Positions 7,161 through 64,000 of a DNA stretch of 64,000 bases are shown one piece after another. The DNA comes from Prorocentrum cordatum (taxonomy: Eukaryota). The stretch spans positions 124,001 through 188,000 of the forward strand of contig CAUYUJ010000059.1 in assembly GCA_963575745.1 (NCBI GenBank). Reading direction: 5' to 3'. The first letter of the stretch is position 1. Each line of letters begins with the position of its first letter. The notes under the pieces were generated by a model. It was not told the DNA's origin. It saw only the letters and a program-made list of their open reading frames with translations, and searched no databases. A program made the position numbers and the translations under genes.

Positions 7161-8375
7161 GCTGATGCCGCAGTGCCTCCGCGGCAAACGGGCCCGACAG
7201 TATATTTCGCTCGTTGATGGTAAGTTCCAAAATATGGATCGTACTTGGGGTTCCCTACTGGGATCCAGGCGGAATTGGATTTAGATGTTGCGAGTTTGGA
7301 TGGTGGGTGCTCCATGACACCCCAGTCGTCGATGCCCTGTGCCTGTCATGACTTCTGGTTGCCGCCCAGGTGCCCTATGGCTGGTGCCATCTGTTCCCAG
7401 CCCACGGTTGTCGCGATGTCTGACTGCCGCCCTGGTGCTCCCTGGCGGGTACCTTTGTGATGCCCTTGTCACCAACGGCATGCGCGCATCGAGAGTCCAA
7501 GAGCCCATTGTTTGGGGCACATGTTGGCAGTCTTTTGTTTTATTGAGCTGCTGCGTCTCAGCGGACAGACAGTGCAAGAGGAGCGGCGTGCCGGCCACCT
7601 TCATGAAACTCGCGACTTCAGGATGCGATACACACTACATGTTTCCTGGGTCGCGGGCCGACTTGCAAGACGCTCCGCGGAAGTTGCCCAAGTGAAGCAG
7701 GATCACGACACAACATACGTGCACGATCAAAGAGGCGTCACCTGCGCGGCAATGATGTTTGCGACGTTGCAGCTGCAAGCAGCACGATGTACCCGTGGCA
7801 TGTGTTTCCGTTGGACATTGGCCTCAGCAATTGTAGCAGTCGGTTTCTCTGGCTACTGTGCAAGATTGGTTAGCTGCAGCAATGGCAGCCTTCTGACCAT
7901 ATGGGTTTACATGGGCATCGCATCGAGTCAACATTTCGATTGGTTCAAGGTCATACAACAGTTTGGGATTCTGCCCCGGAGCGATCCCTCCCTTCCCCAC
8001 CACAGTGTGCCGTGCTGTGTCTGCGGTGTGTTTTCGTACTTCGTTCTCTTTCGTTCCCCCCTCTTGTATAACTGCGCAGTGCTTTGCAATGCGATGTCTG
8101 CTTGCGTAGCGACCGTAGGAGCACCATGAGCGCAGAGGTCGCCGCCTCATGCACCAGGACAGCCAGTGCACGTTCACCGCTCACTGCCAGCCGCCAGGCC
8201 CGTGCCGACAAAAATGTTTTCGTCGGCCGCGTACGTTCGGATGCATGCCTGCCACGCGGTGCTGAGAGACGCCCGCCCCGACTGGGGCCCCGCAGAAGAG
8301 CCGGTCAGGATCCTGCCAAGGCCGCGCCAGGACCCTACCACGACCTTGCTAGAACCCCACGGGGGCCCATACCAC

Positions 8376-8547
8376 TCGGGGATGGACAGAACCCCCAACA
8401 GTGACACGTCGATTAGTGAATTGTTCGTTTTCGGTTCTCGAGAGGGCGCCGTGGCCGTTATTTTCCAGGCTTGCGCCCGCCAGGTTTGGGCCTCAGGTCG
8501 TTTTCACTAAACCACGTTTTACTAAAGGGGGGTCTGTCCATCCCCGA
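8376..8547. mobile_element. MITE family B, copy 1, 172 bp; 5-bp TSD ACCAC
   Basis: Perfect 15-bp TIR TCGGGGATGGACAGA / TCTGTCCATCCCCGA; ACCAC at 8371-8375 and 8548-8552. Confidence 0.92.
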
Positions 8548-8774
8548 ACCACGACCCTGACGGTCACCAGGAATCCACCCGCACCCTATCAGGACCCCCA
8601 CATGGACCCTGCCAGGAGCGTTCGCGTCCGCGCATGATGGCAGCGGTCGGCCCGTGCCACGTCTTTTTGTGGTTTCCCATCCCCCGCGCTCGCCAGGCAG
8701 CCTTCGGCGACGAGAGCAGCAAAGCTCTTCTTCCCGCGGCGACGCCCCCCCCCAGCACAGCCCCGCAGCAGGAA

Positions 8775-9730
8775 GAAGGGGAGGGGAGGGGAGGGGAGGA
8801 CCACGAGGGGAGGAGATGGAGGGCAGGAATGGGAGGGGATGGGGAGGAGAGTGAGCGGAGGGGAGGGGAGGGGAGGGGAGGAGAGTGAGCGGAGGGGAGG
8901 GGAGGGGAGGGGAGAGGATTGGAGGCGAGGGGGGGAGGACCACGAGGGCAGGATCGGGAGAGGAGGGGAGGGGCGGGGGGGGGTCGTGGAGCCTGCCTGC
9001 GGCCTGGGCCTGCCGTGGGCCGGAGGCGCCCGCCCTCGTTCCTTCGTGCGCGTTTCTCGTGGCGGCAGCGCGACGACTGTGCTCCCCTATCTCCTCCTCC
9101 TCCTCCTCCTCCTCCTCCTCCTCCTCCTCCTCCTCCTCCTCCTCCTCCTCCTCCTTCTCCTCGATCCCTCCTCTCCTCCTCCTCTCCTCCTCCTCCTCCT
9201 CCTCCTCCTCCTCCTCCTCGATCCCTCCTCTCCTCCTGCTCCTCTTCCTTCTCCTCCTTCCTCCTTCCTCCTTCCTCCTCCTCCTCCTCCTCCTCTCCTC
9301 TCCTCCTCCTCCTCCTCCTCCTCCTCCTTCCTCCTGGGGAGGCCGCGGCCGGCCTCGGAGAGCCTGACCTCGTCGGTTGCGGGGTGCGCCTCGCCCCGGC
9401 GCTCCCGCTGTTCTCTTGGTGTCTCTCTTGTGCTCTCCCTCGTGTGCAGTTCCGGCTCCTCCTCCTACTCCTGCCCTCCTCCTCCTCCTTCTCCTCCTCC
9501 TCCTCTCCTCCTCCTCCTCCTCCTCCTCCTCCTCCTCCTCCTCCTCCTCCTCCTCCTCCTCCTCCTCCTCCCCCTCCTCCTCCCTCCTCCTCCTCCTTCC
9601 TCCTGGGAGGCCGCGGCCTGCCTCGGAAACCTGACCTCATCGGTTGCGGGGTGCGCCTCGCCCCGGTGGTCCCGCTGTTCCCTTGGTGTCTCTCTTTTGC
9701 TCTCCCTCGTGTGCACTTCCGCTCCTGCTT
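8775..9730. repeat. (GGGGA)n tract, then (CCT)n tracts with a ~125-bp direct repeat at ~9333-9458 and ~9601-9725
   Basis: GAGGCCGCGGCC.GCCTCGGA.A.CCTGACCTC.TCGGTTGCGGGGTGCGCCTCGCCCCGG...CTCCCTCGTGTGCA occurs twice. Confidence 0.9.
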
Positions 9731-9742
9731 GTTGCTGTAGCT

Positions 9743-9919
9743 TCGGGGGCGGAAAGAGGGGGGGGGGATATCATGGCGGGGGCCATGATATTTCCCCAGA
9801 TCTCGTGGCGCCTCTTCTTGTTTCATTAGGTCCCTGGCCCCCCCACTGGCCGCGCACATGCCGCCGGTCATGATTTGCAACCCCCCCCTCTTGGACACCC
9901 CCCTCTTGGCCGCTCCCGA
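9743..9919. mobile_element. MITE family E, copy 1
   Basis: TIR TCGGGGGCGGAAAGAGGGGG / CCCCCTCTTGGCCGCTCCCGA; internal sequence matches 58550-58743; TSD not preserved here. Confidence 0.85.
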
Positions 9920-10112
9920 TGGGCGGCGCGCGGTCCTTCCGCTTGCGCTCGCGAGCAAAAAAATGACTGTGCCCCCGCCCAGCGATGGTGACGGTGGTGG
10001 AGACGGGGGAACGGCTGTCATCGCAGACCCACGGGCCGACACCAACACAAGATCGGCGCCTGTGCCTCCACCGAGGGAAGACGATCCCGATCTCGGTGGT
10101 GGTGGCACTAGT

Positions 10113-10203
10113 CTGGCTTCCCAGGGTGACCGAAACACTGCCACCGGCACCGAGCTCTGGGATCGCGCTCCCCATGTGGAGGCAGCCCTCTGGTGTTGGT
10201 CGG
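10113..10203. repeat. Dispersed repeat fragment (second copy 18574-18665)
   Basis: CTGGCTTCC.A.GGTGA.CGAA...CACCGAG.TCT.GGATC...CCCATGTGGAGGCA.CCC shared. Confidence 0.7.
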
Positions 10204-10645
10204 AAACTGGAACATATACACTACCAGTGGCCGGCTGTTTTTCTATCCCGGGACTTGTTGAGGGTCGAGGACGACGCTGGGGTGGTGTGGTGCATATTTG
10301 TTCCCCCGATGTCCCGGGGAAACAACGAAACATGTATACACCAGGGTCCCGTCTACACCAGGACCCGCTCCCCAGTGCAGATGTCAATGCAGGGCCGGAG
10401 CCAGCGTCGGCGTACAGAGTTCGATCCCTTGGTTGGTGCCCGTTTCCAGGTCTCCAGTGTCAGTAGCTCTTCGCACGCACGCAGGACGGACAGAGAGCAC
10501 GGTCGGACCTGGGCATCAGGTCGCGGTCGGTTCGGGGAGCGTGGCCTATTGTGTTCTTCGTGCCTCTTGGGTGTCATCGTGCGCCCGGGGAGGGGTGCCC
10601 TCGAATGCTCCTTCATCTCGGCCGGCGGAGGGCCCCATGTTCTTG

Positions 10646-11055
10646 TCAGGCGGTGGCGAAGCGTCCTGGCTCGCCTATAGCCCTACCAGACAATGGTCTC
10701 GGAACCTTTTGTGGTTTCCACGGAATGTTCTTAGAACACGTATGGTTGGAGCTGTCTTGTTTTAACACATCGGGCTGATGTTCTAAGAACCGCGATTTTG
10801 TTCTTAGAACATTTTTGGGTTCCGAGAACATGTCGTGGTAGGATAATATCGGGGCTGGACAGAACCCCCAACAGTGACACGTCGATTCGTGAATTGTCCG
10901 TTTTCGGTTCTCGAGAAGGCGCCGTGGCCGTTATTTTCCAGGATTGCGCCCGCCAGGTTTGGGCCTCAGGTCATTTTCACTAAACCACGTTTTGCTAAAG
11001 GGGGGTCTGTCCATCCCCGATAATAGGAATGCCGGGACGGACGGTCCCTGCTCAA
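10646..11055. mobile_element. MITE family C, copy 2, interrupted by a family B copy
   Basis: Collinear with 1068-1300 once 10849-11025 is removed. Confidence 0.85.
10849..11020. mobile_element. MITE family B, copy 2, 172 bp; 5-bp TSD TAATA
   Basis: TCGGGGCTGGACAGA / TCTGTCCATCCCCGA; TAATA at 10844-10848 and 11021-11025; the empty paralogous site at 1261-1280 has a single 5-mer (TAGGA-CTACA-GGAATGCC). Confidence 0.95.
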
Positions 11056-12499
11056 GTCTTAGGTCCGGCCGTGCACGTAGGATTGGGCAGGAGTAGGAAG
11101 ACCATTGCTGCGAGTAGCTTTCTGGACTCGTCAGGCTTGGCTGAGGCTTGTGGCGCTCGGGGTAGGAGTGGGGGCCTCCGAGCAGTCGGCCGACCCTGAC
11201 GCCATGGTTCCCAAGCCCTTGTCGATCGCCTCTTGGTCAATCGTCATTTTCAAGGAAGGGAGGAGGAGGAGGAGGAGGAGGAGATCTAGGAGGATTAAGG
11301 AGGAGGTCGGGGTTACGAACATTTCTGTTTGTCCCACTCGGTCGTCTGCGAACCGTGACCGCGTCGCACTCCTAATGATCAGTCCCCCCAGAGGATCTTG
11401 GCTTTCTCGATCTACATTTGGTCGACCCTGGTCAACGCTGCCTTTCGTGTCCCAGCCTGTTCTTTATCCATGCCGTTGCCCAGTATGGTCGGACCGAGGC
11501 GTAAGAGCGAGATCGGCTCGGGGAGGGTACCCGAGTGCTCTTCGTGCTTGTGGAATGGTCTTGTGCGTCCTGGGGGAGGGTGCCCTCGAGTGTTCTTCGG
11601 TTCGGCCAGCGGAGGGTCTGGTGTTCTTGGGGGGTGTTCTTCTGTCCTAGGTCCGGCCGTATGCACCACGCTACGAATCATCCCATGCTTGCCCCTTGGA
11701 CATTTGCACTGTGTATTGCAAGTGGCCGAGCCTGAGCGATCGGGGTTGAAGGGGCGTCGGCCTTCGGACTCGATCTCGCCTGCTCTCCTTGCTGGCTGCG
11801 GACTTCGCGTGCAGGGCTCCGTGCAGCCCATCCCGCAGCTTGCGCGTGCCGGCACGCCGTCTTCACCGGAGCGAGACTGTGGGCCTGGGCAGGGATGAGG
11901 CGGCCGAGGCCTCTCGCTTCCCTCCCGTGCTCCTGCAGGGGGGCGTCTGGGGATGCGTGCCCCAGCTCTTGGCGTGGGGCGGCCTGGCTGCGGTGTCGCC
12001 GCTCCGCGCGCCTCTCCGTCCTCCTGCGCTCCGCGGGGGGCGTCTGGAGGTGGGCCGGCGCGCCTGCAGCAGTGTCCGTGCTGCTCGCCATGGAGGAAGG
12101 GGGTCTCGAGGGACCTGGGCCCCAACGTTTTTGATGTGTTCCGGTCCCCCGGGCCCTCCCCGGGCCCCCGGACCGTCAACGAACGCCTCTGGATGCAAAA
12201 AGCTCGTCCCGGGGGAATACCCAGGACCCCCGATTTCCCTCAGGACTCGTTTCTTTCATGGTAAGGTGCTCTCTGCGTTTGGGGGGTGATCTTATTTCTC
12301 GGACGGGGTCAGGACGAGGATGAATCCGTTCCAGAGCGTTCCGGAACGCTCTCAAAGCGTTCCAGAACAATCTGGAAAGGCCGCGGCGCCTGAGACATCC
12401 TCCAGATCCGCCGGATCTCAGAGATTCTCGATTTATCCTCACCCGATGTTATCCTCGCCCTGGTTTCGTCTGAATTACCCCTCCATCCTGGTCAGATTC

Positions 12500-13600
12500 A
12501 TCTATGTAGAGTGCTGGGTCATATGTGAGCGTACTCTGGGGGGCGTCCACGCTGCAAGGCAATGCGTTTGTGCATTGACCCATGCGCACACGCTGGTCGT
12601 TGAATGCCCAGATCCCAATATAATTTAGGTGCCTTCCTACTTCAAGAGTGCATTCAACGCCTTCCTACTTCATGATTCTACCTACTCTTCCGATCGATGG
12701 GCAACTAGATCTGGCAAGTTGGTACGTCGTGGTATATGAACGCTTTCGGGCTTCTCTTGACGCTTGTGCCCCAGATGTATGCGCGCATGTTGCGATCGTC
12801 GTTCTTATATTTTATCAGGTGAGCCAGCTGCACTTCATGTTGGCGCTCTCTGGGCCGTTCGAGTTCTTGTCGAAGACGCTCCATCGCCCGGTGAAGGTTG
12901 CTAGGCCTGAGCCTCTTGATAGCGCTGTTATTGGGAGCAACGTGCGGGATGCGAGCGGCGGCGCGCGATGGAGCAGAGCAAGTAACCCATCTTGTTGCGA
13001 TGTCTGTTCATAGACACTGTGGCTCACTTATTCCTAATCCTCCTTCTCCTTCTCTCCCATCCCTTCCCCCTCGCCGTCCCGACCCCGATTCGGTCAAAAT
13101 GTGTTCCCAGACCTTCCTCCGATTCTCGAGCTGGCGTAGTCCGTCCGTATCTCAGTTGTTGGAAGCATTCGTTTATTGCCGTCCGTTCTGCAGAGGTAGC
13201 AGTGAGCCAGACGCATGTGCCGACGACGTCCCACCGTGCGAGGTCAGCGCTCCTCCTCAGTCTGTTCGCGCGTGACTCATGTTTGAGACTCCGATCCGCA
13301 AGACTTCGGTGGCTCGTTCGACGTTCGTTTGCGGTACCCTCCCGAACAGTGTTTCCGCTGAGTCTGTTAGCCTGGTCGCTCCTGCGCTGGGCCTGTTGTG
13401 GGCGTGCTCGAGGTCGAGTCCGTGGTTGAGGTCCTTGCTGTCTTCCCCTCTTCCCGGGTCGATCCTGAGCTTCTGTAGACAGCCTATTTGCGTTGCGTGA
13501 GCGGCTCTCGGATCGGCCTGTTTGGAGCCGGGTTCCAGTCTGCGCAGATCCGGCTTAGAAGGCGACATATTGGTCATGGAGTGCGTTCCGGTCTGTTGTG
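12500..13600 (-). pseudogene. Possible heavily decayed non-LTR retrotransposon fragment (ORF1 / AP-endonuclease-like)
   Basis: Lower-GC, non-repetitive island; minus-strand stop-ridden peptide KALNALLK*EGT*IILG loosely resembles the APE GDxNA motif region; weak. Confidence 0.2.
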
Positions 13601-13785
13601 GTGTCGACAGTATGGCGGCGATGACCTGGTATCGAGGTATTGACAGAGAGATCGCCAGGCAAGGAGATCGAGCAATACATCGATATCGCTAGATAGATCG
13701 CGAATCCGATCCGATGCCAATCGCAATGCGAAAGTCGCGCCCATCCCCCCCGCAGTCTCCTGATCACCCGCAGGGTGGTCGTATA

Positions 13786-13931
13786 TCGGGGGTGGACAGA
13801 ACCCCCACCCTGACGCGTCGATTAGTGAACTGTCCGTTCTCGGTTCCCGAGAGGGCGCCGCGGCCGTCATTTTCCAGGCCTGCGCCCGCCAGGATTGGCC
13901 GAGGTCGTCTTCACTAAACCACGCTGTACTA
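13786..13931. mobile_element. MITE family B, copy 3, right end truncated
   Basis: TCGGGGGTGGACAGAACCCCCA...TCACTAAACCACG; right TIR missing. Confidence 0.85.
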
Positions 13932-13966
13932 CAGTCAAGACGTTGAAATGAGGAACGGTCTGGGCT

Positions 13967-14192
13967 CGGAAGGGGCCCGATGTTCCTGAGATTCCCCCAG
14001 TGCTGTTCCCCTTGCCCTCCTGGGGCACGGAGGCGCTTACAGGGCCAAGAAGGGGCTTCTTTCCTTATTCAGCGTTCCTTCTTTCAGCGGCCGGACTGTA
14101 TTCATCCCCGACTTCGGAAGGGGCTCGATGTTCCTGAGATTCCTCCAGTGCTGTTCATTTTGCCCTCCTGGGGCACGGAGGCGCTCAGCTGA
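13967..14192. repeat. Direct repeat, ~75-bp core with ~147-bp period
   Basis: TCGGAAGGGGC.CGATGTTCCTGAGATTCC.CCAGTGCTGTTC...TTGCCCTCCTGGGGCACGGAGGCGCT occurs twice. Confidence 0.85.
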
Positions 14193-14649
14193 CCAAGAGA
14201 CTTGCCGAGGCCTCTGAGAGAGCTCAAACAACTCGGCAGCGCCAGGCCCACCCCTCAGCCCTACCCGGGACGGGGTAAGTTAGCTTTTGCAGCGTACGCC
14301 CTCTGAGTGGAGATGCGCGCCGCGAAACCCTAAGGAGAAACGTTTGGAAAATCGTCAACGCCCGCGGGCAACCCTTCCAGAACCGTCAAACAGCTTCTGG
14401 AAACCTCAGAGGGACGCCGATGACCACCAAGAATGTCTGATGATCTCTTTTGAAAACCGCCTGGAGACCTCAGAGAATTGGTGAGGACCTCGAAAATATC
14501 CCAAATCCTCCGAGGACCGCCGAGAGCCTCCGGGAACCGTTGGAGAAAAGAGTCCGCACGCATATTTGGGAACCGCCGAACCCTGGAACATCTCCCCCAG
14601 CTGATGGGAAGCCAACGGGGGCGCACGCGCTGGGGCCAACTGGGGCGCC

Positions 14650-15145
14650 GGCGCTCGTCGTGGTCGTCGCCGACGCCGCTGTCGCCGTCGTCGTCGCCGC
14701 CGCAGTTGTCGCCACCGTCGCCGTGGCCGTGGCCGTCGTCGCCGATGCCGTCGTCGCCGTTGCCGTGGTTGGCGTCCTCGTCGCCGCCGTCGGCGTCGCC
14801 GCGGCCCCTGCCAGGCTGCGGAGGCTGGCGGGGGGCTACGGCTGGCGCGCGCCCGCGTGGCTCCTGGCCGCGCTGCTGTGGGCGTGGTCGTTGCCCGCGG
14901 CGCGGCCGCCGCCGCGACCGCCCACCGCGCCCGCCACCGCAGGGCGGCACTCGTCGTCGTCGTCGCCGTCGTCGCCTCCCTCTCGATGTCCTCCTCCTCC
15001 TCCCCCGCGTCCTTCTCCCCCTCGTCGTCGTCGTCGTCGTCGTGGTCGTCGTCGTCCTCCTCCTCCTCCTCCTCCTCCTCCTCCTCCTCCTCCTCCTCCT
15101 CCTCCTCCTCCTCCTCCTCCTCCTCCTCCTCCTCCTCCTCTATCT
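14650..15145. repeat. Compound (GCC/GTC)n to (CCT)n microsatellite
   Basis: Seen directly. Confidence 0.9.
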
Positions 15146-15592
15146 CCCCCTTCTTCGAATGAGGGGGAGGAAGGGAGGAAGAGAGATGAGGGAGGTGGGG
15201 GAGGAAAGACCTCCCCATCCTCCTGTTCCTCCTTCTTGTCGTTGCTTCCCTTTCCATCCTCTCCCCTCCTGCCTCTTCCCCGCGGCTTCCACCCTGCCCA
15301 CTCCTGCTCTTCACAAGCATCCACTCCCTTCCCCATTCCTCCTCCGTTCCCTCGTATGCTCCGCCCCGTTTCCCCTTTCCCTGGAGTCTGTAGCCCTTTC
15401 GGCTCCAGGTCTGGAGTGTTTCGCTCGGGAGTTGCTCGTGGGGGTCGCGGTCCAATCTGCCATAGTTGTTGTGCGCTCCCCGAGCGCAGGCTTCCACCTC
15501 CTGGCGTACGTAATGCACTGCGGTTTCAGCCCGCACGGCCCCTGCGAGCCCACACTGCAGTCAACCCGCGCAGGAAGGATGGGCAACCTTCC

Positions 15593-17631: not shown

Positions 17632-17823
17632 TCGACTAACTACACGTAAGAGTGACCTTTCGCCAGAGTGACCTTTGGTGCGGGCACAGTGGGGTCCCCC
17701 GATCACCGATTGCGATGCGACAGTAGCGCCTTGCGCGCCTGAGTTTGGTCCCCCCGCGGGCCCCCCAAAAGCCGCGCACCAAAGGTCACTCTTACCCAGA
17801 GGGTCACTCTTGCGTGCAGCCGA
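17632..17823. mobile_element. MITE family G, copy 1; 5-bp TSD TCCCA / TCCTA
   Basis: TCGACT...CACGTAAGAGTGACC / GGTCACTCTTGCGTGCAGCCGA; two AGAGTGACC subterminal motifs at each end; second copy 30849-31032. Confidence 0.85.
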
Positions 17824-18189: not shown

Positions 18190-18272
18190 AGGCAGCCGGC
18201 GCCGGGAGAAGCAGCTGCGTGAGCTGATTCCCAAACCCCCCCTTTGCTATCCCCCCCTTTCGCCCGACCCGA
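18190..18272. mobile_element. Right end of MITE family F
   Basis: CAGCTGCGTGAGCTGATTCCCAAACCCCCCCTTTGCTATCCCCCCCTTTCGCCCGACCCGA matches 63426-63487. Confidence 0.75.
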
Positions 18273-18914: not shown

Positions 18915-19084
18915 TCGGAGGTGGATTGGCCTCCTACCCTGACACGTCGATTAAGGAATTGGCCGTTTTTGGTTCGCGAGAGGGCGTCACGGCCGTCATC
19001 TTTCGGGTCCAGGTCCGTCGGTTTCGGACACAGGCCGTGTTCACTAAAGGGAGGTTTACTAAAGGGAGGTTTGTCCACCGCCGA
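18915..19084. mobile_element. MITE family B, subfamily B2, copy 4
   Basis: TCGGAGGTGGA...TGTCCACCGCCGA; internal CTGACACGTCGATT...GGTTCGCGAGAGGGCG shared with family B; TSD ambiguous. Confidence 0.85.
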
Positions 19085-20665: not shown

Positions 20666-21278
20666 CAGAGACCAGGAGCAGAGGCCACGGGCCTCGACCA
20701 CCACGGGCCACGACCAATGACCACCGGGCAGAGACCACAGGGCACGACCGGAGATCACGGGAAATGCCAGACACCGCGGGCAGAGATCACGGGCCACGGA
20801 TTCGAGATCTTGCGAGGCACCTACTAGCCTTAGAAATTATACAAGGCCTTCGTAGATAAGGTGTTCAGGGAAGGAGGAAAGGAGGAGGAGGAGGAGGCGG
20901 GAGGGAAGGAACGGTGGTAGAAAGAGGGAGCAGAAGGCGCACAAGAGGAGGACCAGGACGAGGTGGACGACAAAGAGGACTTGGGACGGCGACGGCGACG
21001 GCGACGACGACAGCGGCCATCACGGCGGCGACGACAACGACGACGGCGACTGCGGCGTTGGCAGCAACGACGACGACGGCAGTGTGGTGGAGGACGATCA
21101 GTGGAGAGGAGGCATGTTGAAAAATGATTTCCAGATGTCTAAAACATGTGTTCAACATGATTAAAACATGTCTAAACAGGTTTAAAACATATTTCGAACA
21201 TGTTTTACATATTGAACGCATTTTCAATTCAATGATAGGACTGTTAGGCTGTCCATTGTCGTGGCATCCACAACGGTA

Positions 21279-21454
21279 CAGTCGGGGCCCTGAAGAAGGA
21301 ACCCTTTTCGTTGGGGAGGGGCTCCGTGTTCCTTGATTGTTTCGCAGCTTGCCTCAGGTTTTCCTTAGGTTTTCGATGGGGAATCGAACTTTCACTGATG
21401 GGAAATAGGGGCCTCGTTCCTTATTTAGGGATCCTTAGGTCAACGCCCCCACTG
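21279..21454. mobile_element. Tc1/mariner-pogo-like MITE family A, copy 2, 176 bp
   Basis: TA|CAGTCGGGGCCCTGA ... TCAACGCCCCCACTG|TA. Confidence 0.93.
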
Positions 21455-21784
21455 TAGTGGCCGCGAGTGCGGCGACGGCAACGGGGGAGGAGGAGGAGGA
21501 GGAGGAGGAGGAGGAGGAGGAGGAGGAGGAGGAGGAGGAGGAGGAGGAGGAGGGAGGAGGAGGGAGGGATGCTGTGGCCACGAGTGCGGCGACGGCAACG
21601 GTAGGGCGGCGACGCTGCTGCCTCCGCGCGTGCGCTGCGGAGAGGCGTGCGCCCTGCTCGAGCTCGGCCCGCCGCCCCCGCGGAGCGCCGGCTCCGCCCC
21701 CGAGGACTCGCTCCGCGAGGAGGCGACGTCCCCGCCGCCGCCGCCGCTGTCGTCGCCACCGTCGCCGCCGCAGTCGTCACTCAC

Positions 21785-24155: not shown

Positions 24156-25955
24156 ATGTGTTCAAGCATGGGAACTTCCATGGGCTACCGAGCTGCTTCC
24201 GGCCGAAACGCAGCCCCGTTACTCACGCTGCCGTGTATGCACCCGACTGGAAAGCGGAAGGGTTGGTCAGCATTCCCCGATCTGTATTTGAATAACCAGT
24301 TGGGCCAGTCTATACACACGTGTTCCGAACAAGGCCACGCGTGCATGAGGAGCATATGTTCGTTTGCGCGGATGGCGTCTAAGAACACATGGCGCTTGTT
24401 CGGCAAACCTTTCAATTTTGTCGTTCGTTATGTCTTCGATGGGGGTTGGGCATTCTCGAACTTGGAATGTGCGCCGGCGGAGCTATCGCAGGCGATTTCT
24501 CGCCTCGAGCCCGCAGGCCGCCTTCATGATGCAGCTCCGTTCTCATGTCGCCGATGCGGGTCTTCGCTTTCGTCCCCGACAGTTGGCGTGGCCGATGCCC
24601 CTCAAGCGTTCGAGGGTCTGTCATCAGGCAGCATCGAGGATACCTTGACGTTCTTGTTCGCCCAGGCCCGCTGTCACATCACAACCGGGACGATCAGCGT
24701 CGCAAAATGCAAATTTTTCACAGTGGCTTGCGGGGGTAACCCGAAAGAAAAAAAAAGAGACCGGCACGTCATCTTTCCCAGCACGCTTGAACGCGTTGTA
24801 CGATTGTATTTGCAGCTACGGTTGTATAGAGTTGGGAAGAAGATCTGGCGGCAGATATCCCGCGTACCCATTGGCGGTCCGATCAGCAATAGCATGTTCG
24901 ACGCTGTCTGCATGTACCAAGAGTTCAAGTATGACCGCAGTCATCCCGCCAGGAGTTCGAAGCCTGCCGCAGGCCGCTACACCGATGATGCATTCGGGCC
25001 AGAAGGTCAAACACAGATAATCAACGATTGTGCCATCCTGCAATACTCAGATTTCACCATACACAGGGATTGGAACCGTATTTTGATCACGCATTTGCAT
25101 AAGAATTTCGATGTTGCGTTCAGTGGCGATATGTCGAAAATGAAGGAAACGTCACTCGCACCTTCCACATGTATATTCGACAGCAACGTCAGATTGAGAC
25201 ACAGGTCTGAACTATTTGGCCGGCTGCGGAGATGGGAACTTGCGAAAGATAATCTGTTGAACATGATCATGCCCATCATTTCTGACATAGTATTGTACAT
25301 CAGATTTGGGTATAATGTGAAACATATTCGTGCCTTTTGGCGTGGTGTGCCCCTTGACGAACACGTCCGCGAGAGGGTGTGGCGGCGCTTGGATGCCATT
25401 GCCTGTTCTTGCAAACGCTTGCCCCTGGGTGAAAGCCAGCAGGTGCAGAAGTTAGAACGGCCGCTCCAGATGTGCATCGGGGCGACATTGGCCGTCATGA
25501 GCGGCAGGACGTCATGCATGGGTTCGGATGTGTGTGATCCTTTGTGGGCGACCCGTCAAAGCAGCGCACCAGCTTTACCTGCGAGGGCGCTCGCGCATGC
25601 ATTATGCGATCTGTTTGAATCGTTCGGGGCCAGCCGTGCGAGGCCAGGCGAGTCAAGTCTCGAGGTAGTTTTCGCGTTGACCACCCTCACCAGATTGGCC
25701 GACCTGGTGGAGCCTAGGGGACAGGATCGCCATTGCACTATTGGATTCTTCGCGTGGTTTGCCTACCCACCTCATCTGGGAGGATTTACGTATGCATGGA
25801 CTGCTCACGACAAGCCAGCAAATGTGCGACGCCCGAGCCTCTGGAGAGTACCGCTCTCATCGTCCAGAGGCTGTTGTCTCACAGTCGATTCAGTATTTTC
25901 GTGTGCCGTTCGTTGCGAAGCCGATTGTATTTTCGATTTGCAACACGTTGTATGA
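24156..25955 (+). mobile_element. Penelope-like retroelement reverse transcriptase frame, probably decayed
   Basis: The 599-codon frame has RT motifs in order: RSICS, VADAPQAF (Asp codon 24594), YRVGKKIWRQISRVPIGGPIS (~24825-24887), RYTDD (24975-24989), then LYIRFGY resembling the PLE C-terminal helix region; conserved G replaced by R in motif B; start codon uncertain. Confidence 0.7.
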
Positions 25956-27090: not shown

Positions 27091-27259
27091 TCGGCCACGC
27101 GCGCAAAGGGGGGTAGGCGGAGGGGGGAAGCCTACTCAGAAACACCCGTGCCTCTCCGAAGGCGAAGGCCTGATCCGTAGACGTGGGGCCGGCGCCTTCT
27201 CAGAAGCTGCCTCTGTCTAAGAAGCTTTCCCTTCCCTACCCCCTTGCGCGCGCCGCCAA
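27091..27259. mobile_element. MITE family I, ~45-bp imperfect TIR, TCGG...CCAA termini
   Basis: TCGGCCACGCGCGCAAAGGGGGGTAGGCGGAGGGGGAAGC inverted against GCTTTCCCTTCCCTACCCCCTTGCGCGCGCCGCCAA; flanks GAGGA / GGAGG, TSD register uncertain. Confidence 0.7.
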
Positions 27260-30848: not shown

Positions 30849-31032
30849 TCGATTACGCGTAAGAGTGACCCTTCGCTGGAGTGACCATTGGTGCGAGCCC
30901 ATTGGGCCCCCCCGATCGCCGCGCGCGATGCGATAGCAGCGGCCTGCGCGCTTGCGTTTGGCCCCCTCGCGCCCCCCAAAAGTCTCGCAGCAAATGTCAC
31001 TCTTACCTAAGGTCGCTCTCGCGCGCAGCCGA
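30849..31032. mobile_element. MITE family G, copy 2; 5-bp TSD TGTGA / TTTGA
   Basis: TCGATTACGCGTAAGAGTGACC ... GGTCGCTCTCGCGCGCAGCCGA; collinear with 17632-17823. Confidence 0.85.
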
Positions 31033-31400: not shown

Positions 31401-39055
<7,655 letters not shown>

Positions 39056-49036: not shown

Positions 49037-49238
49037 AGGGGTCGGACAAGGGGGGGGGGCGGGATTGGGAAAGCCTGGGGGCTCAAAACCTGCTGCATGC
49101 AGCTGGTGTCGCCTCCGCCGCCCGGCGCGTTGCCCGCTGCCTTCGTGCCTCCGGCACCGGGGGGCGCCAGTCAAAAGGGGCTGCGTGAGCTGACTCACTG
49201 ACCGCCCGTGTGCTATCCCCCTGTTTCGTCCGATCCGA
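49037..49238. mobile_element. MITE family F, diverged copy; 5-bp TSD CCTTC / TCTTC
   Basis: GTCGGAC.AGGGGGG...GGATTGGGAAAG, TGCTGC..GCAGCTGGT.TCG, GCTGCGTGAGCTGA and TGCTATCCCCC..TTTCG.CCGA.CCGA shared with 63290-63487. Confidence 0.7.
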
Positions 49239-50384
49239 TCTTCGGACCGCTGCGCCCCCGGGGCCTCAGGCTTCTGCCAGGCTCCCAGCATCATTCAAAG
49301 CGGGAAATTGTGAGATCGCCCTACCCTCACCGGTCCACTGCTCGCAGAGTGCCTACTCGCCGACGTCCGAACAGAAACAGGTGTTTGCCTCGATGTAACA
49401 TACCGTAAACCCCCCGCGGCAGATCCAGGCCGTTTGCGAGTGGTTACTTTGCGAGTAGTGGAACGCGCTGGTCTGTACCCCATAGGCGAACAGTGCCTAG
49501 TCATGCTTACTGGAACCCTCCTGGAGGCCAACAGCAGAGGACGCTCTCCCCGCCCGCCCCGAAGCGGTCCGATTCGATCCCGATTTCGGGGCTGGCCCGA
49601 TTCGACCCCGATCTTCCGACGACGCGATGCGGGCCGATGCTGGCACTATGAGGGTGAGCATGCTTGCGCGGCCCACCCGACTCGATTCCGACCCCGTGCC
49701 GATGCGGCCGGACCCGATGCGCATCCCGACCCGATCCGATTTCCCGACCCGATGCACCGACTGCCTCTGTTTCGGGTGCCACTCCTGGGAAGTGAAGCTC
49801 TGATCTTGCCCCGATCCGGAATCCGGCTTAAGCCGGCTTGTTCCCGCTAGATCCCGCCTGATCCGGCTTCATCCCGCTGAATCCGCGGCTCAAGCCGGCG
49901 CAGCAGCTTCCCCGCGGGGCTTGAATCCCTTTTAATACTTCTGGCGAAGGCCTCCCAGTAGTTGCCTCCTAACCCTGTCCCGGGGGAAGAATGACGTCGA
50001 CGATGACGACGACGACCACCACCACCACCACCACCACCACCACCACCACGACGACGACCACGGCGACCCGAGGCGACGCCACCACCACCAGTGGGGCCAC
50101 CTCCAGCTCGGGGGTCCACGGTGCCTCCCCGAGCCGGGCGGGAGCGGCGGCGCGCGGCCCCTCTCGGGGTGGGGGCGAGCTGGATCGTCGCAGGCGCCGC
50201 GGCTCGCGTGCGCCGTCGGGGCCTCCCCCGTCTTCGGGCTGCCTCACGAGCAGATGGTCGTGTGGCGGCAGCTGGCTGGCAGAGGGGATGCCTCGAGCGA
50301 GACGGGGGGGGGAGGGGAAGGCACACCACCGGGAGCACCCTCCCTGGCGCCTCGCGCTGGTGCCGGCTGTGGTCGCCTGCCCTC

Positions 50385-54520: not shown

Positions 54521-56044
54521 GAAGATCCCCGAGAGGAGAGGCAGGAGGAGGGGGAAGAGGGCACTGGCAGGGATGAGCAGGCCTCCAGATTGCCGCAGCC
54601 CCAGAGCCCGAGCTGCAGTAGAACAGGGATGGTGGGAGCAAGCCTCCAGATTGCCAGAGCCCGAGCCTCCAGATTGGCCTGAGGATTCATACCTCCCCCT
54701 CCTCCTCCTCCTCTCACCTCCTCCTCCTCCTCCTCCTCCTCCTCCTCCTCCTCCTGCTCCTCCTCCTCCTCCTCCTCCTCCTCCTCCTCCTCCTCCTCCT
54801 CCTCCTCCTCCTCCTCCTCCTCCTCCTCTCCCCTCCTTTCTGCCTCCCTCCATCTCCTCCCTTCCTCTTCTACCCCCCCTCACTCCCTGCCCTGATCATC
54901 TTGTCTGGGTGGATGGGAAATGTCACCTGACCGAGCCACGCCCGTCCGAACTACTTAGTATTCGGCTTAGTCGTCTGGGCTACTTGGAATGCTCTTGCAA
55001 GAACAAAGGGGTCGGTCGCAACGCATGTGCCATCGGAGTGTGGAACCTCGTACGTCGTAAACGCACCAAGCGCCATGTGCCCCTCACCGTTTCCGGCGCC
55101 AAGTGCATGTTAAGAGGTATGGGTTGGGATTGTTGAGTTGACCCGGATGCGTTGGTTGGCGACTCGTGCGACCGCCTCTGCGCCATTGCCACCGCCGTGC
55201 GGAGCAGACAGGAGCGATGTCCCAGTGAGACCGAGCGGGAGAAGCGGAACCGAGGAGCCTCGCCGCGCATTCGTCAAGAGGCCTGCGCAGGTCAATAGGG
55301 GGAGCCTCGGGAGGCCCGAAGGCGTTCTTCGACGGCGTGCCGAGGGAGGAGGCGAGAGGGGGCAGGCCTTCCGAGAAGGTGGCGGGGCTTCGCAGAAGCC
55401 CTCGGGCACTCCGAGGAGCCCCCATGTGGCTTCGCAGAGGGGCCACGCACGCACAAGTCCTCGCAGATGGCAGGAGGCCCTCCGAGCCTCCCGAGAGGGC
55501 CCGCCCCCCTCCTCCTCCTCCTCCTCCTCCCCTCCTCCTCCTCCTCTCCTCCTCCTCCTCCTCCTCCTCCTCCTCCTCCTCCTCCTCCTCCCCCTCCTCT
55601 TCCTCCTCCTCCTCCTCCTCCTTCTCCTCCCTCCTCCTCCCCCTCCTCCCTCCTCCTCCTCCCTCCTCCCTCCTCCTCCTCCTCCCTCCTCCCTCCTCCC
55701 TCCTCCTCCTTCCTCCTCCTCCCTCCTCCTGCCTCCTGCCTCCCTCCTCCTGCCTCCTCCCTCCTGCTCCGCCTCCTCCTCCTGCCTCCTCCCTCCTCCC
55801 TCCTGCCTCCTCCCTCTCCCTCTCCCTCCTCCCTCCTCCTGCCCTCCTCCTCCCTCTTCCCTCCTCCTCCTCCTCCTCCTCCTCCTCCTCCTCCTCGACC
55901 TCCTCCTTCTGAGAGCGCGCCGCCGCTCCACGCAGAAGCATGCAGCGCGTTTCTCCGAACGCCACCGGGGAGGAGCACAGTCCGCCCGCGTACCGTCGGA
56001 CCGAGGCACAAGACCGAGGTCGGTTCGGGCAAGGTACCCTAGTG

Positions 56045-56210
56045 TTAAGACGGGCTTGTCCCTCTACAGGGGGAATAGTTAAGAATAGTCCAAACATAGT
56101 CTGGGGACTAGTTTTTGAATATTGGCACCCTCTATGCCTTTTTGGGGATGCTTGGGGTATGTTTTAGTTTCCGTCGAAAGTCCCCCTGTAGGGGGACACG
56201 CCCGACATAA
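56045..56210. mobile_element. MITE family K, ~30-bp TIR, 8-10 bp TSD; diverged copy at ~63511-63671
   Basis: TTAAGACGGGCTTGTCCCTCTACAGGGGGA / TCCCCCTGTAGGGGGACACGCCCGACATAA; CCCTAGTG at 56037-56044 and 56211-56218 (ACCCTAGTGT if the termini are 1 nt shorter). Confidence 0.85.
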
Positions 56211-56229
56211 CCCTAGTGTGCTTCATGAT

Positions 56230-56400
56230 TCGGAGGTTGATGGACCTCCTACCCTGACACATCGATTCGTGTATTGGCCGTTGTCGGTTCGCGAGAGGGC
56301 GTCGCGGCCGTCGTGTTTGCGGGTCCAGGTCCGTCGGTTTCGGCTCCAGGCTGCTTTCACCAAGGGGAGGTTTATTAAAAGGAGGTTTGTCCACCGCCAA
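56230..56400. mobile_element. MITE family B, subfamily B2, copy 5; 5-bp TSD ATGAT / GTGAT
   Basis: TCGGAGGTTGA...TGTCCACCGCCAA; collinear with 18915-19084. Confidence 0.88.
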
Positions 56401-58085
56401 GTGATTGTTGGGCATTGTTGTGCATCCTGGGGAGGGTACCCTTGGATGTTCTGTGTCGCCTGACTGGCGGAGGGCCTCGTGTTCTTGAGGGGCGCTCTTC
56501 TGTCCCAGGTCCGACTGCAGTAGGGATGCAGGACTTTACAAGGCGACCCTCGCATCCTTAACCTTCGGCCCACCCTTCGACCGCTGTCGCTGGCCGCGCC
56601 CCGCCCGCAGAGTGTCGGCAAGGCCTTCCAAGGCCCTTGCGTCCTCAGCGTGCGTCCCTCACTGTACGGCCTGCCTGCAGCAGCAGCAGCAGAGACGAGT
56701 GGGGCGGCAGGGGGCAGGCCACCTTGCCGTCCTTCGTGCCGCCGCCCAGCGCGTCCAGCGGCGTGGACCGCCGCGCTGCCCTCGGTGGGCACGGGGGCAG
56801 ATCTGCTGTGCCTCTCTGCCCATGCCAGCTGGGGTCTTCCCCTCCTCCCTCCTCCCTCCTCCTCCTCCTCCTCCTCCTCCTCCTTCCTCCTCCTCCTCCT
56901 CCTCATCCTCCTCCTCCTCCTCGTCCTCCTCCTCCTCCTCCTCCTCCTCCTCCTCCTCCTCCTCCTCCTCCTCCTCCTCCTCCTCCTCCTCCTCCTCCCC
57001 CCTCCCCTCCTCCTCCTCCTCCTCCTCCTCCTCCTCCTCCTCCTCCTCCTCCTCCTCATCCTCATCCTCTCCTCCTCCTCCTCATCCTCATCCTCCTCCT
57101 CCCCTCCCTCCTCCTCCTCCTCCTCCTCCTCCTCCTCCTCTCCTCCTCCCTCCTCCTCCTCCCCCCTCCTCTTCCTCCTCCTCCTCCTCCTCATCCTCTT
57201 CCTGCTCCTCCTCCTCCTCCTCCTCCTCCTCCTCCTCCTCCTCCTTCGAAGAACAAAGAACGGCAGAAACATGAACTCTCGGTGCTCTGCGCGGATGTCC
57301 TGCACCGGCGTTGGGCCCCAATGGCGGTGCCTCCTGCGCCGCCCTTGGTGCGCTCCGCGCGCTAGGGAGGCGGGTCCAGCGCCGATCCGAAGCATTCCGC
57401 TCGGAGCACCAACAGTTTATGCTGCTGCAGCTTGCTCCTCCTCTGCTCCTGATGCCGCGGTGGCCGCAGGTCCGGGGTGGCGGCGAGACGGGTGCAGGTC
57501 GGGGGCAACGTTTGAGAGGAGTGGGCACAGTGGGGAGGCATCTACCCCCTAAACGGTTGTTCATCGCCGACGCGCCCGATGCCCACCCCGCCCTTGAGCG
57601 TGCGGATTCGCCATCGGGGGCCTATCGGAGATCAGTCGGCGGTGTATCGCCGCCTCTAGCTCGATACCACCCCCCATCCACCCGAGCCAATCCCCCCTAC
57701 CGTTTCCCCTCAGCAGGGTAGCCCACGATGGAGAAGAGCAGACGTTTCTCTTCCTCCTGTACTCCTCCCCATGCTCCTCATCCTCCTCCTCGCCTCATCC
57801 GTCCTCCTCCTCGTCATCATCCTCCTCCTCATCCTCCTCATCCTCATCCTCATCCTTGCCTCTTCCTCTTCCGCCTCCGCCTCCTTCTCATCCTTACTGT
57901 ATCCTCTTCCTCCTCCTGCTCATGCTACTCCTCGTCCTCCTCCTCCTGCTCCTGATCCTGCTCCTCCTCCTCCCTCCTCCTCCTCCTCCTCCTCCTCCTC
58001 CTCCTCCTCCTCCTCCTTCTCTTCCTCCTCCTCCTCATCCTCCTCCCATTCTTCCTCCTGCTCCTCCTCCTCCTCCTCCTCCTCC

Positions 58086-58549: not shown

Positions 58550-58743
58550 GCGGCGGCGGAAAAGAGGGGGGTGATGACTAGGGGGGGGGGAGATCATGGC
58601 GGGGGGGCATGATATTTCCCCAGATTGCATGGCGCCTCTTCTTGTTTCATGACGTTCCTGGGCCCCCCGCTGGGCCGCGCACATGCCGCCGGTCATGATT
58701 TGTACCCCCCCCTCTTGGACACCACCCTCTTGGCCGCTCCCGA
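58550..58743. mobile_element. MITE family E, copy 2; 5-bp TSD CAGTG
   Basis: CAGTG at 58545-58549 and 58744-58748; right end CTCTTGGCCGCTCCCGA identical to the copy ending at 9919. Confidence 0.88.
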
Positions 58744-59425: not shown

Positions 59426-59493
<68 letters not shown>

Positions 59494-59717
59494 GTCTTTC
59501 TCCCTTCCCTCCTCCCCTCCTCGTCCTCCTCCCCCTCCTTCCTCCCCCCTCCCCGCTTGAACCCTGCAGGTGGCGTCCCGCCCCTGCTGGGTCCAGCCGC
59601 GAGGGCTCCGCAGCGCCGCGAGCGGCGCCCCGGGCCTCCTGGCCGCTTGCCCCTGGAGGGGGCGCACGGCTTGCAGCGCGTGGCCACCTGCCGCGCGCTG
59701 CACCTTCCCTTCCTCTA

Positions 59718-59893
59718 CAGTCGGGTCGCTGAAGAAGGAACCTTTTTCGTTGGAGAGGGGCTCTGTGTTCCTTCAGTGTTTCTCAGCTTGCCTCAGGTTT
59801 TCCTTATGTTTTCGACGGGAAATCGAAGTTTAACCCATGGCAAAAAGGGGCCTCGTTCCTTATTTACGGTTCCTCGGGTCAACGCCCCGACTG
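59718..59893. mobile_element. Tc1/mariner-pogo-like MITE family A, copy 4, 176 bp
   Basis: TA|CAGTCGGGTCGCTGA ... TCAACGCCCCGACTG|TA. Confidence 0.93.
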
Positions 59894-60124
59894 TACAATA
59901 CCGGCCACAGCCCGAGGGGGCCGCCCAGCTTTGGCTGTCCTCCTTCCCCCCCCGTCCCCTTCCCTCTCTCCTCCTCGCCCCGCTCTGCGGCGCGGGCCCC
60001 GGCCTTTGTGGCACTGGCTGGGGCGTCCGCCACGCCAGTTTTCGCATGCTGCAGCGCTCCTCGTCCCTCCCACTGTACGCGGGAGCTGTGCTTCTCTGGG
60101 GGTGTCTCGCGCTCGTGCTTCTTT

Positions 60125-60144
60125 GCCGAGCCATTTTGGCCAGG
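60125..60144 (+). other. Dinoflagellate spliced-leader-like relic
   Basis: GCCGAGCCATTTTGGCCAGG versus DinoSL DCCGTAGCCATTTTGGCTCAAG; exact 12-nt core AGCCATTTTGGC at 60129-60140. Confidence 0.45.
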
Positions 60145-63268: not shown

Positions 63269-63289
63269 GTTGGGGAGGCCAGGCACCAG

Positions 63290-63487
63290 TCGGGCCGGAC
63301 GAAAGGGGGGGATTGGGAAAGGGGGGGTTGTACGAAATTTGCTGCGCGCAGCTGGTTTCGGCCTCACCGAGGGGCCCAGTCCTCGATACATAGCCGCCTC
63401 CGGCGCTGGGAGGCGCCGGGAAAATCAGCTACGTGAGCCGATTCTCAAACCCCCCCTTTGCTATTCCCCCCCTTTCGCCCGGCCCGA
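63290..63487. mobile_element. MITE family F, full copy, ~40-bp TIR, 198 bp
   Basis: TCGGGCCGGACGAAAGGGGGGGATTGGGAAAGGGGGGGTT / AACCCCCCTTTGCTATTCCCCCCCTTTCGCCCGGCCCGA; only CAG is duplicated at the flanks. Confidence 0.88.
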
Positions 63488-64000
63488 CAGGGGCAACGCT
63501 GGGGCAACGCTCAAGTCGGGCACGTCCCTCCACAGGAGGAAGATCCAAAACGAGTCAAAAAAACTGTCGGGGGACGAGTTGTGTTGGGCATGTTTTGCCA
63601 TTTGGGGGTATGTTTTGACTATGTTTTATTTGTCGTCCAAAATCCCCCTGTAGGGGGATTTGGGACGAAAAACGCTCGACCTCGAGGTTCGAAAAGAGTT
63701 CCGGACGTCTTCGGCGGTCCTCGGCGGTCTTTTGGCCTCGGGACGCGTTGCGGCGGCTGCGTCTCGCAGAGGGCGCTCCCGGGGGCGCCCGGACGCTCCC
63801 CGACGGCCGCCGGAGACCCGAGTCATGACCCGAAAACCAGAGGTCAGGGGGATCAGGGTCGGAATCGAAGATGAGAGACGACAAGGGGCAGCGTTGGGGG
63901 GGGGAACAGGCTCGGGGGGAGACGCAGCGACCCCGAATCGCCCACTCGTCGCCGGCAGGGGCCCGAGGAGCGGATTCGCCATCGGGGGCCGATCGCCAAT

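What the first reader, a model, noticed from the sequence alone, without database searches (positions are those of the whole stretch)
8371..63490. Several unrelated MITE families share TCGG...CCGA-type termini and a 5-bp TSD: candidate unassigned transposon group
Seen: families B (8376, 10849, 13786, 18915, 56230), E (9743, 58550), F (18190, 49037, 63290), G (17632, 30849), H (6261) and I (27091) are ~140-200 bp with unrelated interiors, yet converge on TCGG/CCGA-like ends. C (TCAA/TTGA) and J (TCTG) are looser matches. Perfect 5-bp duplications are ACCAC, TAATA, CAGTG, ACGTC and GTCTC; 4-of-5 matches are ATGAT/GTGAT, TCCCA/TCCTA, TGTGA/TTTGA and CCTTC/TCTTC. No target consensus is apparent. 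Established: 5-bp-TSD systems I know end differently (Transib CAC, Ginger/retroviral-type and Mu/Tn7 TG, Polinton AG, Tn3 GGGG). Inference: one unassigned transposase lineage has spawned these families, and its autonomous partner is not in this window.
Basis: partly seen in the sequence, partly recalled or inferred. Interest (0 to 1): 0.8.

Follow-up and report, generated by a model that had tools for sequence, protein, structure and literature searches.

The report
Small jumping elements with TCGG ends
This repeat-rich stretch of a GC-rich eukaryote-like genome holds several families of small gene-less jumping elements that start with TCGG and duplicate five bases where they land, a combination matching no transposon group I could check, though the enzyme that moves them is not here.

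Summary
The observation largely holds. All 14 listed coordinates are real repeat copies and all nine listed flank pairs are as stated. Five of the six named families (B, E, F, G, I) have 5'-TCGG...CCGA-3' ends; H does not (5'-CAGG...TCGG-3').

Flank matches occur only at five bases. Of 19 curated elements, 5 match perfectly and 5 more match 4 of 5. None matches perfectly at four or six bases. No set of 5000 random controls reached 10 matches. Two paralogous empty sites fix the B boundaries and the 5-bp duplication.

These are non-autonomous cut-and-paste elements. Related transposases making 5-bp staggered cuts probably move them, and B looks recently active (B1/B2 96% identical).

No transposase lies in the window. 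No outside copy was found, no genome is held, and Repbase/Dfam could not be consulted. "Unassigned" is therefore plausible but untested.

TCGG also sits just inside the ends of TA-, 10-bp- and other families here, so the four bases alone are not diagnostic. Interest is modest.

The parts
8376..8547 (.). B1: 172-bp MITE. TIR TCGGGGATGGACAGA(A/C)CCCCC (20 of the first 24 end positions pair). Perfect 5-bp duplication ACCAC.
10849..11020 (.). B2: 172 bp, 95.9% identical to B1. Perfect duplication TAATA. Sits inside C2.
   Evidence: Empty paralogous site in C1 has exactly 5 bases (CTACA) at that point.
13786..14111 (.). B3: older B copy, interrupted at about 13935-14100 by a TA-flanked element related to the CAGTCGGGG family. 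Flanks GTATA/CTTCG, no duplication (1/5).
18915..19084 (.). B4: B subfamily (76% to B1), TIR TCGGAGGTGGA. Flanks ACATA/CATTT (1/5).
56230..56400 (.). B5: B subfamily (86% to B4), right end mutated to CCAA. Flanks ATGAT/GTGAT (4/5). Sits inside K3.
   Evidence: K3 with B5 and one flank copy removed aligns without a gap to K2 across the site.
9743..9919 (.). E1: 177 bp, TCGGGGGCGGAAAGAGG...GGCCGCTCCCGA. Flanks TAGCT/TGGGC (2/5).
58550..58743 (.). E2: 91% identical to E1, first base mutated (GCGG). Perfect duplication CAGTG.
18198..18272 (.). F1: 5'-truncated fragment of F holding only the right end (...CCCGACCCGA).
49037..49238 (.). F2: left end mutated (AGGGGTCGGAC). Flanks CCTTC/TCTTC (4/5). 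Lies 3 bases from candidate M.
63290..63487 (.). F3: TIR TCGGGCCGG(A/G)CGAAAGGGGGGG (22 of 24 pair). Flanks ACCAG/CAGGG (1/5).
17632..17823 (.). G1: TCGACTAAC...GTGCAGCCGA. Flanks TCCCA/TCCTA (4/5).
30849..31032 (.). G2: 81% identical to G1, TCGATTACG...GCGCAGCCGA. Flanks TGTGA/TTTGA (4/5).
27091..27259 (.). I: single copy, TCGGCCACGCGCGCAAAGGGGGG...CCAA. Lies in GGA-rich target, so flanks GAGGA/GGAGG (2/5) are uninformative.
5180..5857 (.). T (my candidate, single copy): 678 bp, TCGGCCCATCCCGCC...GGCGGGCTCGGCCGA. Flanks GGCCT/GGCGT (4/5). Interior holds tandem-repeat units also seen at 3768-5020.
49242..49572 (.). M (my candidate, single copy): 331 bp, first 10 end bases pair perfectly (TCGGACCGCT). 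No flank match (0/5).
1068..1300 (.). C1: ends TCAAGCAG / reverse-complement TTGAGCAG. Perfect duplication GTCTC. Not TCGG-ended.
10646..11055 (.). C2: 82% identical to C1, carries B2, sits inside K1. Flanks TCTTG/GTCTT (1/5).
6261..6403 (.). H: near-palindromic 143-bp element, left end CAGGCCAGCC, right end GGCTGGTCGG. Perfect duplication ACGTC. Not a TCGG-start element.
21277..21456 (.). Different superfamily: one of 4 copies (also about 16077-16260, 40905-41084, 59715-59897) of TA|CAGTCGGGGCC...CCCCGACTG|TA. TA on both sides in 3 of 4 copies. Tc1/mariner-like by TA flanks and CAGT ends (features recalled).
1540..1683 (.). Different superfamily: 144-bp element CAGGGCTGGACC...GGTTCAGCCCTG with a perfect 8-bp duplication GATGTAGG. 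hAT-like.
56046..56209 (.). Different superfamily: L1, 164 bp, TAAGACGGGC...GCCCGACATA, with a perfect 10-bp duplication ACCCTAGTGT (56036-56045 and 56210-56219). A second copy lies at about 63513-63680.
   Evidence: K2 holds one copy of the site
24156..25955 (+). 599-aa ORF with reverse-transcriptase-like motifs. A retroelement fragment, not a transposase for these MITEs.

Best explanation
Families B, E, F, G and I, and perhaps my single-copy candidates T and M, are miniature non-coding derivatives of cut-and-paste DNA transposons. A transposase encoded elsewhere in the genome binds their inverted ends, which all begin 5'-TCGG. It inserts them through cuts staggered by five bases, and repair of those cuts leaves a 5-bp duplication.

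Shown: the inverted ends, the precise boundaries, the 5-bp duplication, insertion into other repeats, and the lack of coding capacity.

Inferred:
- The enzyme is a DDE-type transposase.
- The families use the same or closely related enzymes. This is best supported for B, E and F, whose ends read TCGGG..(Y)GGA.
- B was active recently.

The superfamily cannot be determined from this window. I judge a divergent lineage of an already described superfamily more likely than a new one.
For: - Length specificity: flank matches only at k=5 (5 perfect and 5 more at 4/5 of 19 elements; 0 perfect at k=4 or k=6). All 5000 random sets stayed at 5 or fewer with >=4/5.
- Empty paralogous sites: C1 has exactly 5 bases where C2 carries TAATA-B2-TAATA. 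K3 with B5 and one flank copy removed aligns gaplessly to K2.
- Ends: TCGG at 25-28 of 28 ends per position. B3 and E1 differ at 1 of the first 11 positions.
- Boundaries of B, E, F and G are set by where copies stop being alike, independently of the flanks.
- Youth: B1 and B2 are 95.9% identical and both have perfect duplications.
- No coding capacity: no Pfam transposase domain in 313 ORFs tested.
Against: - 5 of the 12 complete copies of B, E, F, G and I show no duplication (B3, B4, E1, F3, I). This fits decay of old copies but is not proof.
- Only four end bases are common to all families.
- TCGG also lies just inside the ends of three families with other duplication lengths.
- H and C make 5-bp duplications without TCGG ends, so more than one 5-bp system may be present.
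- The sample is one 64-kb window. No transposase, no genome-wide copies and no outside copies were found.
Confidence: 0.75

Rival explanations
1. The TCGG families belong to an already described superfamily that makes 5-bp duplications: hAT5, Transib/CMCT, or Ginger2/integrase-type. Their end bases are simply atypical, so nothing here is unassigned.
For: hAT5 is a described hAT group with 5-bp duplications (PMC12730594, passages). CMCT elements make 2-5 bp and Ginger2 4-5 bp duplications. A hAT-like 8-bp MITE is present in the window, so hAT-type elements are present in this window. H (CAGG..., 5-bp duplication) could be hAT5-like.
Against: CMCT ends are mostly 5'-CA..TG-3'. Integrase-type relatives end TG..CA or TA..TA. 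hAT ends start YA (recalled). 26 of 28 ends here start with T and 25 of 28 have C second. No transposase is available to test.
Confidence: 0.4
2. Two or more unrelated transposases move these families. The shared TCGG is a recurrent motif of this genome's repeats, or a recombinant end module, and not the signature of one enzyme lineage.
For: TCGG sits 3-5 bases inside the ends of the TA family (CAG|TCGGGG), the 10-bp family L (TAAG|TCGGGC) and K (YAYGG|TCGGACC). Beyond base 4 the ends fall into at least two types, TCGGG.. and TCGGC... C and H give 5-bp duplications with other ends.
Against: All families with zero-offset TCGG ends that show any duplication show 5 bases and no other length. B and E meet the Repbase 11-base rule. 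The background TCGG frequency is only 0.49%.
Confidence: 0.2
3. The flank identities are chance matches or products of boundary picking, and there is no real 5-bp duplication.
For: The element list was curated. A few ends (E2, F2, H) are mutated and were placed partly by eye. The blind exact-end scan recovers only B1, B2 and T.
Against: Only k=5 shows matches. The observed 10 of 19 exceeds every one of 5000 random sets. Two paralogous empty sites independently give 5 bases.
Confidence: 0.01

Closest known systems
hAT5 (hAT lineage with 5-bp target site duplications; Kapitonov and Jurka 2007, Repbase Reports, as cited in PMC12730594)
   Same: Cut-and-paste elements with short inverted ends and a 5-bp duplication. 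hAT-like MITEs are present in the same window (1540-1683, 8-bp duplication).
   Different: hAT ends begin YA (CAG/TAG; recalled), whereas these begin TCGG. hAT5 was placed among animal hAT lineages. No transposase is available here to test.
Transib / the CMCT clade (CACTA-Mirage-Chapaev-Transib)
   Same: 2-5 bp duplications, with Transib at 5 bp.
   Different: CMCT ends are 5'-CA..TG-3' in most cases (PMC12730594). Here they are 5'-TC..GA-3'.
Ginger2/TDD and other integrase-type transposons
   Same: 4-5 bp duplications (PMC10045372).
   Different: Ends of this group are TG..CA or TA..TA (for the related IS481EU, IS3EU and GingerRoot; Ginger itself recalled). Here they are TCGG.
Unclassified MITEs ('DTx') in plant and algal surveys such as P-MITE
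   Same: Small TIR/TSD elements that cannot be tied to a superfamily from ends and duplications alone. [quoted passage not shown]
   Different: Here the duplication length and end motif are clear and shared by several families, so the group is definable rather than ambiguous.

Membership tests
MITE (non-autonomous TIR transposon) | Terminal inverted repeats | tested here: met
   14-22 of the first 24 end positions pair in 13 of 14 elements; G1 pairs at 10.
MITE (non-autonomous TIR transposon) | Target site duplication of fixed length | tested here: met
   Matches at 5 bp only. Two empty paralogous sites agree.
MITE (non-autonomous TIR transposon) | Small, non-coding, multi-copy | tested here: met
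   143-331 bp (T is 678 bp). 1-5 copies per family in 64 kb. No Pfam domains.
hAT (hAT5 group) | 5-bp duplication | tested here: met
   Group definition from PMC12730594.
hAT (hAT5 group) | Ends 5'-YARNG (recalled) | tested here: not met
   Ends read TCGG at 25-28 of 28 ends per position. H (CAGGC) comes nearer.
hAT (hAT5 group) | hAT-type transposase | not testable with these tools
   No autonomous copy in the window and no genome held.
Transib / CMCT | 2-5 bp duplication | tested here: met
   range.
Transib / CMCT | 5'-CA..TG-3' ends | tested here: not met
   feature from PMC12730594.
Ginger2 / integrase-type | 4-5 bp duplication | tested here: met
   range from PMC10045372.
Ginger2 / integrase-type | TG..CA ends | tested here: not met
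One superfamily by Repbase's rule for non-autonomous elements | Same duplication length and ends alignable at positions 1-11 with at most 1 mismatch | tested here: inconclusive
   Met for B3 against E1 (1 mismatch). Not met between B/E/F and G/I/M/T, which share only positions 1-4. Rule from PMC4455052.

The most novel reading that the evidence does not exclude
The TCGG-ended, 5-bp-duplicating families are the non-autonomous tail of a eukaryotic cut-and-paste transposon lineage that has not been described. Its transposase would fall outside hAT, CMCT/Transib and the integrase-type groups.
Probability: 0.15. Interest if true: 0.6.

Novelty: new variant of a known kind. Interest (0 to 1): 0.35.

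Why it matters
If the end motif and duplication length hold genome-wide, they give a simple handle for finding the autonomous element: search for 1-15 kb intervals bounded by TCGGG...-type inverted ends with 5-bp flanks. That element would either add a divergent branch to a known superfamily or define a new one.

In practical terms, these families, together with the TA, 8-bp and 10-bp families nested with them, make up much of this gene-poor region. They would need curated models for proper annotation of this genome. On present evidence this is ordinary transposon biology with an unusual end/duplication combination.

Tried and rejected
Getting more copies or the source genome:
- No whole genome is held.
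- The look-up of sequencing runs on 8001-18000 listed 3 runs, each holding only 8% of the words and no RNA holder (a first try was one base too long). I did not lay them, so I draw nothing from them.
Nothing was laid.
- Exact-pattern scans found nothing. B-type patterns: viral contigs and metagenome contigs. CAGTCGGGG-family patterns: prokaryotic genome contigs and viral contigs. E pattern: viral contigs. My first B pattern fitted only the older B3/B4 type, not B1/B2.
- Earlier findings of this scan: none for this genome or for the B sequence. A word search gave only unrelated prokaryotic and viral MITEs.

Looking for genes or a transposase:
- Pfam on 13 long ORFs and on 300 of the 443 stop-to-stop ORFs of >=90 aa, at E-value cut-offs of 0.01, 0.001 and 0.0001, gave only low-complexity hits below the curated cut-offs. 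The 143 lowest-entropy ORFs and all ORFs under 90 aa were not scanned.
- No tRNA or Rfam match.
- The 599-aa ORF had no word-indexed homologues.

Methods that did not work well:
- Repeat finder output was swamped by microsatellites.
- A 4-mer-only end scan was dominated by tandem repeats.
- A strict ungapped TIR scan misses mutated ends and over-extends palindromic flanks such as TAATA.

Elements considered and set aside:
- S (48943-49600) and U (12106-12233): TCGG-type pairs with no flank match, possibly chance.
- V (about 10093 and 18550), N (214-633 and 12299-12471), and W (776-914): a TCGG at one homology boundary but the other end unresolved.
- K: the five bases outside TCGG are conserved between copies and inverted, so they belong to the element.

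Literature:
- Six end strings from the window occur in no held paper.
- Searches for 5-bp-duplication MITEs and algal transposons found nothing describing TCGG ends.
- I saw passages only of PMC12730594, PMC10045372, PMC4455052 and PMC3964958. A term search of PMC6004678 found none of my terms. No supplements were read.
Full report
**What the window is**

The 64 kb are 57-66% G+C, apart from an 8-kb trinucleotide satellite at about 31.4-39.4 kb that is 44-47% G+C. GGA/TCC, AGT and TG microsatellites are everywhere.
- No tRNA and no Rfam family was found.
- No credible Pfam domain was found in 13 long ORFs, nor in 300 of the 443 stop-to-stop ORFs of at least 90 aa. The E-value cut-offs were 0.01, 0.001 and 0.0001, and the few hits were low-complexity matches below the curated cut-offs.
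- No whole genome is held.

I read this as a gene-poor, repeat-rich piece of a GC-rich eukaryote, probably algal or protist. That reading is inference from composition and repeat content.

**Checking the observation**

They show no similarity between the interiors of different families.

For B, E, F and G the element boundaries can be set without looking at the flanks, because copies stop being alike exactly at TCGG on the left and CCGA on the right.

Over 28 ends of 14 elements the first four bases read T (26), C (25), G (28), G (26). From the fifth base on they vary. TCGG accounts for 0.49% of tetramers in the window.

- H is the exception. Its ends are CAGGCC... and ...GGTCGG, so read from the right end it starts CCGA, not TCGG.
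- C (TCAAG / TTGAG) and J (TCTG) do not share the motif either.
- F1 (18198-18272) is only a right-end fragment.

**The five-base duplication**

- Perfect: ACCAC (B1), TAATA (B2), CAGTG (E2), GTCTC (C1), ACGTC (H).
- Four of five: B5, F2, G1, G2.

I compared flanks at every length from 2 to 9 bases for 19 curated elements.
- At five bases, 5 are perfect and 10 have at most one mismatch.
- At four bases the counts are 0 and 1. At six bases they are 0 and 1. At seven to nine bases they are 0.
- In 5000 random sets at the same spacings in unmasked sequence, the mean was 0.037 perfect (maximum 2) and 0.43 with at least 4/5 (maximum 5).
- As a second control, TIR-like pairs on the other 255 end tetramers gave 2 perfect and 36 with at least 4/5, out of 1402.

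The sharp peak at five bases cannot come from boundary picking alone.

**Independent confirmation from nested insertions**

The region is a pile-up of elements inside elements, and that supplies paralogous empty sites.
- B2 sits in copy 2 of family C. Copy 1 of C has exactly five bases (CTACA) where copy 2 has TAATA-B2-TAATA.
- B5 and an unrelated element L1 both sit in copy 3 of family K. When each insert and one copy of its flank repeat are removed, K3 aligns to K2 without a gap across both junctions. This confirms a 5-base duplication for B5 and a 10-base duplication for L1.

**What else is in the window**

Other transposon types with their own signatures lie among these families.
- Four copies, plus one inserted into B3, of TA|CAGTCGGGG...CCCCGACTG|TA. 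TA flanks both sides in 3 of the 4.
- A 144-bp CAGGGCTGG... element with a perfect 8-base duplication.
- L, with a 10-base duplication.

So the five-base signal is specific to one set of families and is not a property of the region.

One oddity is that TCGG recurs 3-5 bases inside the ends of the TA family, of L and of K (YAYGG|TCGGACC). In K the outer five bases are conserved between copies and inverted, so they belong to the element. I cannot explain this. It means the tetramer alone is weak evidence for a single enzyme.

**How it most likely works**

These are non-autonomous cut-and-paste elements. A transposase encoded elsewhere recognises the inverted ends and inserts the element through five-base staggered cuts.

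B1 and B2 are 95.9% identical and both have perfect duplications, so that family probably moved recently. Copies without a duplication belong to older, more diverged subfamilies (B3 86% and B4 76% identical to B1), which fits decay.

B, E and F share more than four bases at their ends (TCGGG..(Y)GGA). B3 and E1 differ at one of the first eleven positions. That satisfies Repbase's stated rule for assigning non-autonomous elements to one superfamily (PMC4455052, passages). G, I, M and T share only TCGG with them.

The DDE nature of the enzyme and the one-lineage idea are inferences.

**No partner in the window**

No Pfam transposase domain was found. No 1-25 kb pair of TCGG-type ends has matching flanks.

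The one convincing long ORF (24156-25955) is not a transposase.
- It has 241 relatives at E<=0.001 in the representative library, some 1100-1828 aa long.
- The alignment consensus shows GIPIGGPLS and GRYADD, which I recognise as reverse-transcriptase motifs.
- Language-model look-alikes carry RVT_1 in a minority of their members.
- Formal support is weak: RVT_1 at E=8.5e-4 in 1 of 8 relatives, and one PDB reverse transcriptase at E=0.63.

**Comparison with known groups**

From papers of which I read passages only:
- hAT normally makes 8-bp duplications, but hAT5 and hAT6 make 5 and 6 bp.
- The CACTA-Mirage-Chapaev-Transib clade makes 2-5 bp and mostly ends 5'-CA..TG-3'.
- Zisupton and Dileera make 8 bp, Kyakuja 7, IS3EU 6, Harbinger 0-3 (PMC12730594).
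- Ginger1 makes 4 bp, Ginger2 4-5, Polinton 6, LTR elements 3-6. piggyBac makes 4 bp with CC..GG ends. Merlin makes 8, Zator 3, Academ 3-4 or 9-10 (PMC10045372).

So the described eukaryotic 5-bp groups are hAT5, Transib and Ginger2.

None of these groups is reported, or recalled by me, to start TC. The combination found here is therefore unusual.

The test that matters could not be run. That test is the transposase, or a comparison with Repbase and Dfam. Exact-pattern scans of viral, metagenome and prokaryotic contig collections found no outside copies. No held paper prints these end strings.

**Verdict**

The pattern is real and statistically solid for B, E, F, G and I. It is ordinary in kind (MITEs) and unusual in its end/duplication combination. 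Its superfamily is open.

I put 0.75 on the general mechanism. I put about 0.4 on these families turning out to be a divergent branch of a described superfamily, and about 0.15 on a truly undescribed lineage.

Noticed in passing
window 24156-25955 (+): A 599-aa ORF with reverse-transcriptase-like motifs (RVPIGGPIS, RYTDD). It has 241 relatives in the representative library, some 1100-1828 aa long. The consensus of the long relatives also shows, far upstream, a Y..Y.GR...R..EH stretch that I recall as GIY-YIG-like. This hints at a Penelope-like retroelement with an N-terminal nuclease. Pfam and PDB support is weak.
   Followed up: partly
window 16077-16260, 21277-21456, 40905-41084, 59715-59897; 56046-56209; 10496-10645, 11482-11665 and 55991-56515: TCGG recurs 3-5 bases inside the ends of families with other signatures: TA|CAG|TCGGGG, the 10-bp-duplication family L (TAAG|TCGGGC), and K (YAYGG|TCGGACC). 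Unexplained. It could be chance, shared end modules, or a common binding motif.
   Followed up: partly
window about 343-552, compared with 12392-12428: Element J (51-base inverted ends, 82% paired) is flanked by a direct repeat of about 37 bases of family-N sequence. That sequence is present only once in the second N copy. This is far longer than any usual target duplication.
   Followed up: partly
window 10496-11075 and 55991-56515: Nested pile-ups: K1 holds C2, which holds B2. K3 holds both L1 and B5, ten bases apart. Elements seem to land in one another repeatedly.
   Followed up: yes
window 1532-1691: A 144-bp hAT-like MITE (CAGGGCTGG..., 8-base duplication GATGTAGG) inserted at the junction of two 109-bp tandem units (1430-1538 and 1690-1798).
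   Followed up: partly
window 63488-63512: Between F3 and L2 lies a tandem doubling of an 11-base unit (GGGGCAACGCT twice). It might be an excision footprint or slippage.
   Followed up: no
window about 31400-39400: About 8 kb of AGT/AGC/CGT-type trinucleotide satellite with G+C of 0.44-0.47, in an otherwise 57-66% G+C window.
   Followed up: no
window 15597-15800, 30130-30296 (with 3329-3384), 2027-2323: Three further inverted-repeat elements (P, Q, R) with long paired ends (about 45, 14 and 68 bases) and no clear target duplication. Not classified.
   Followed up: partly
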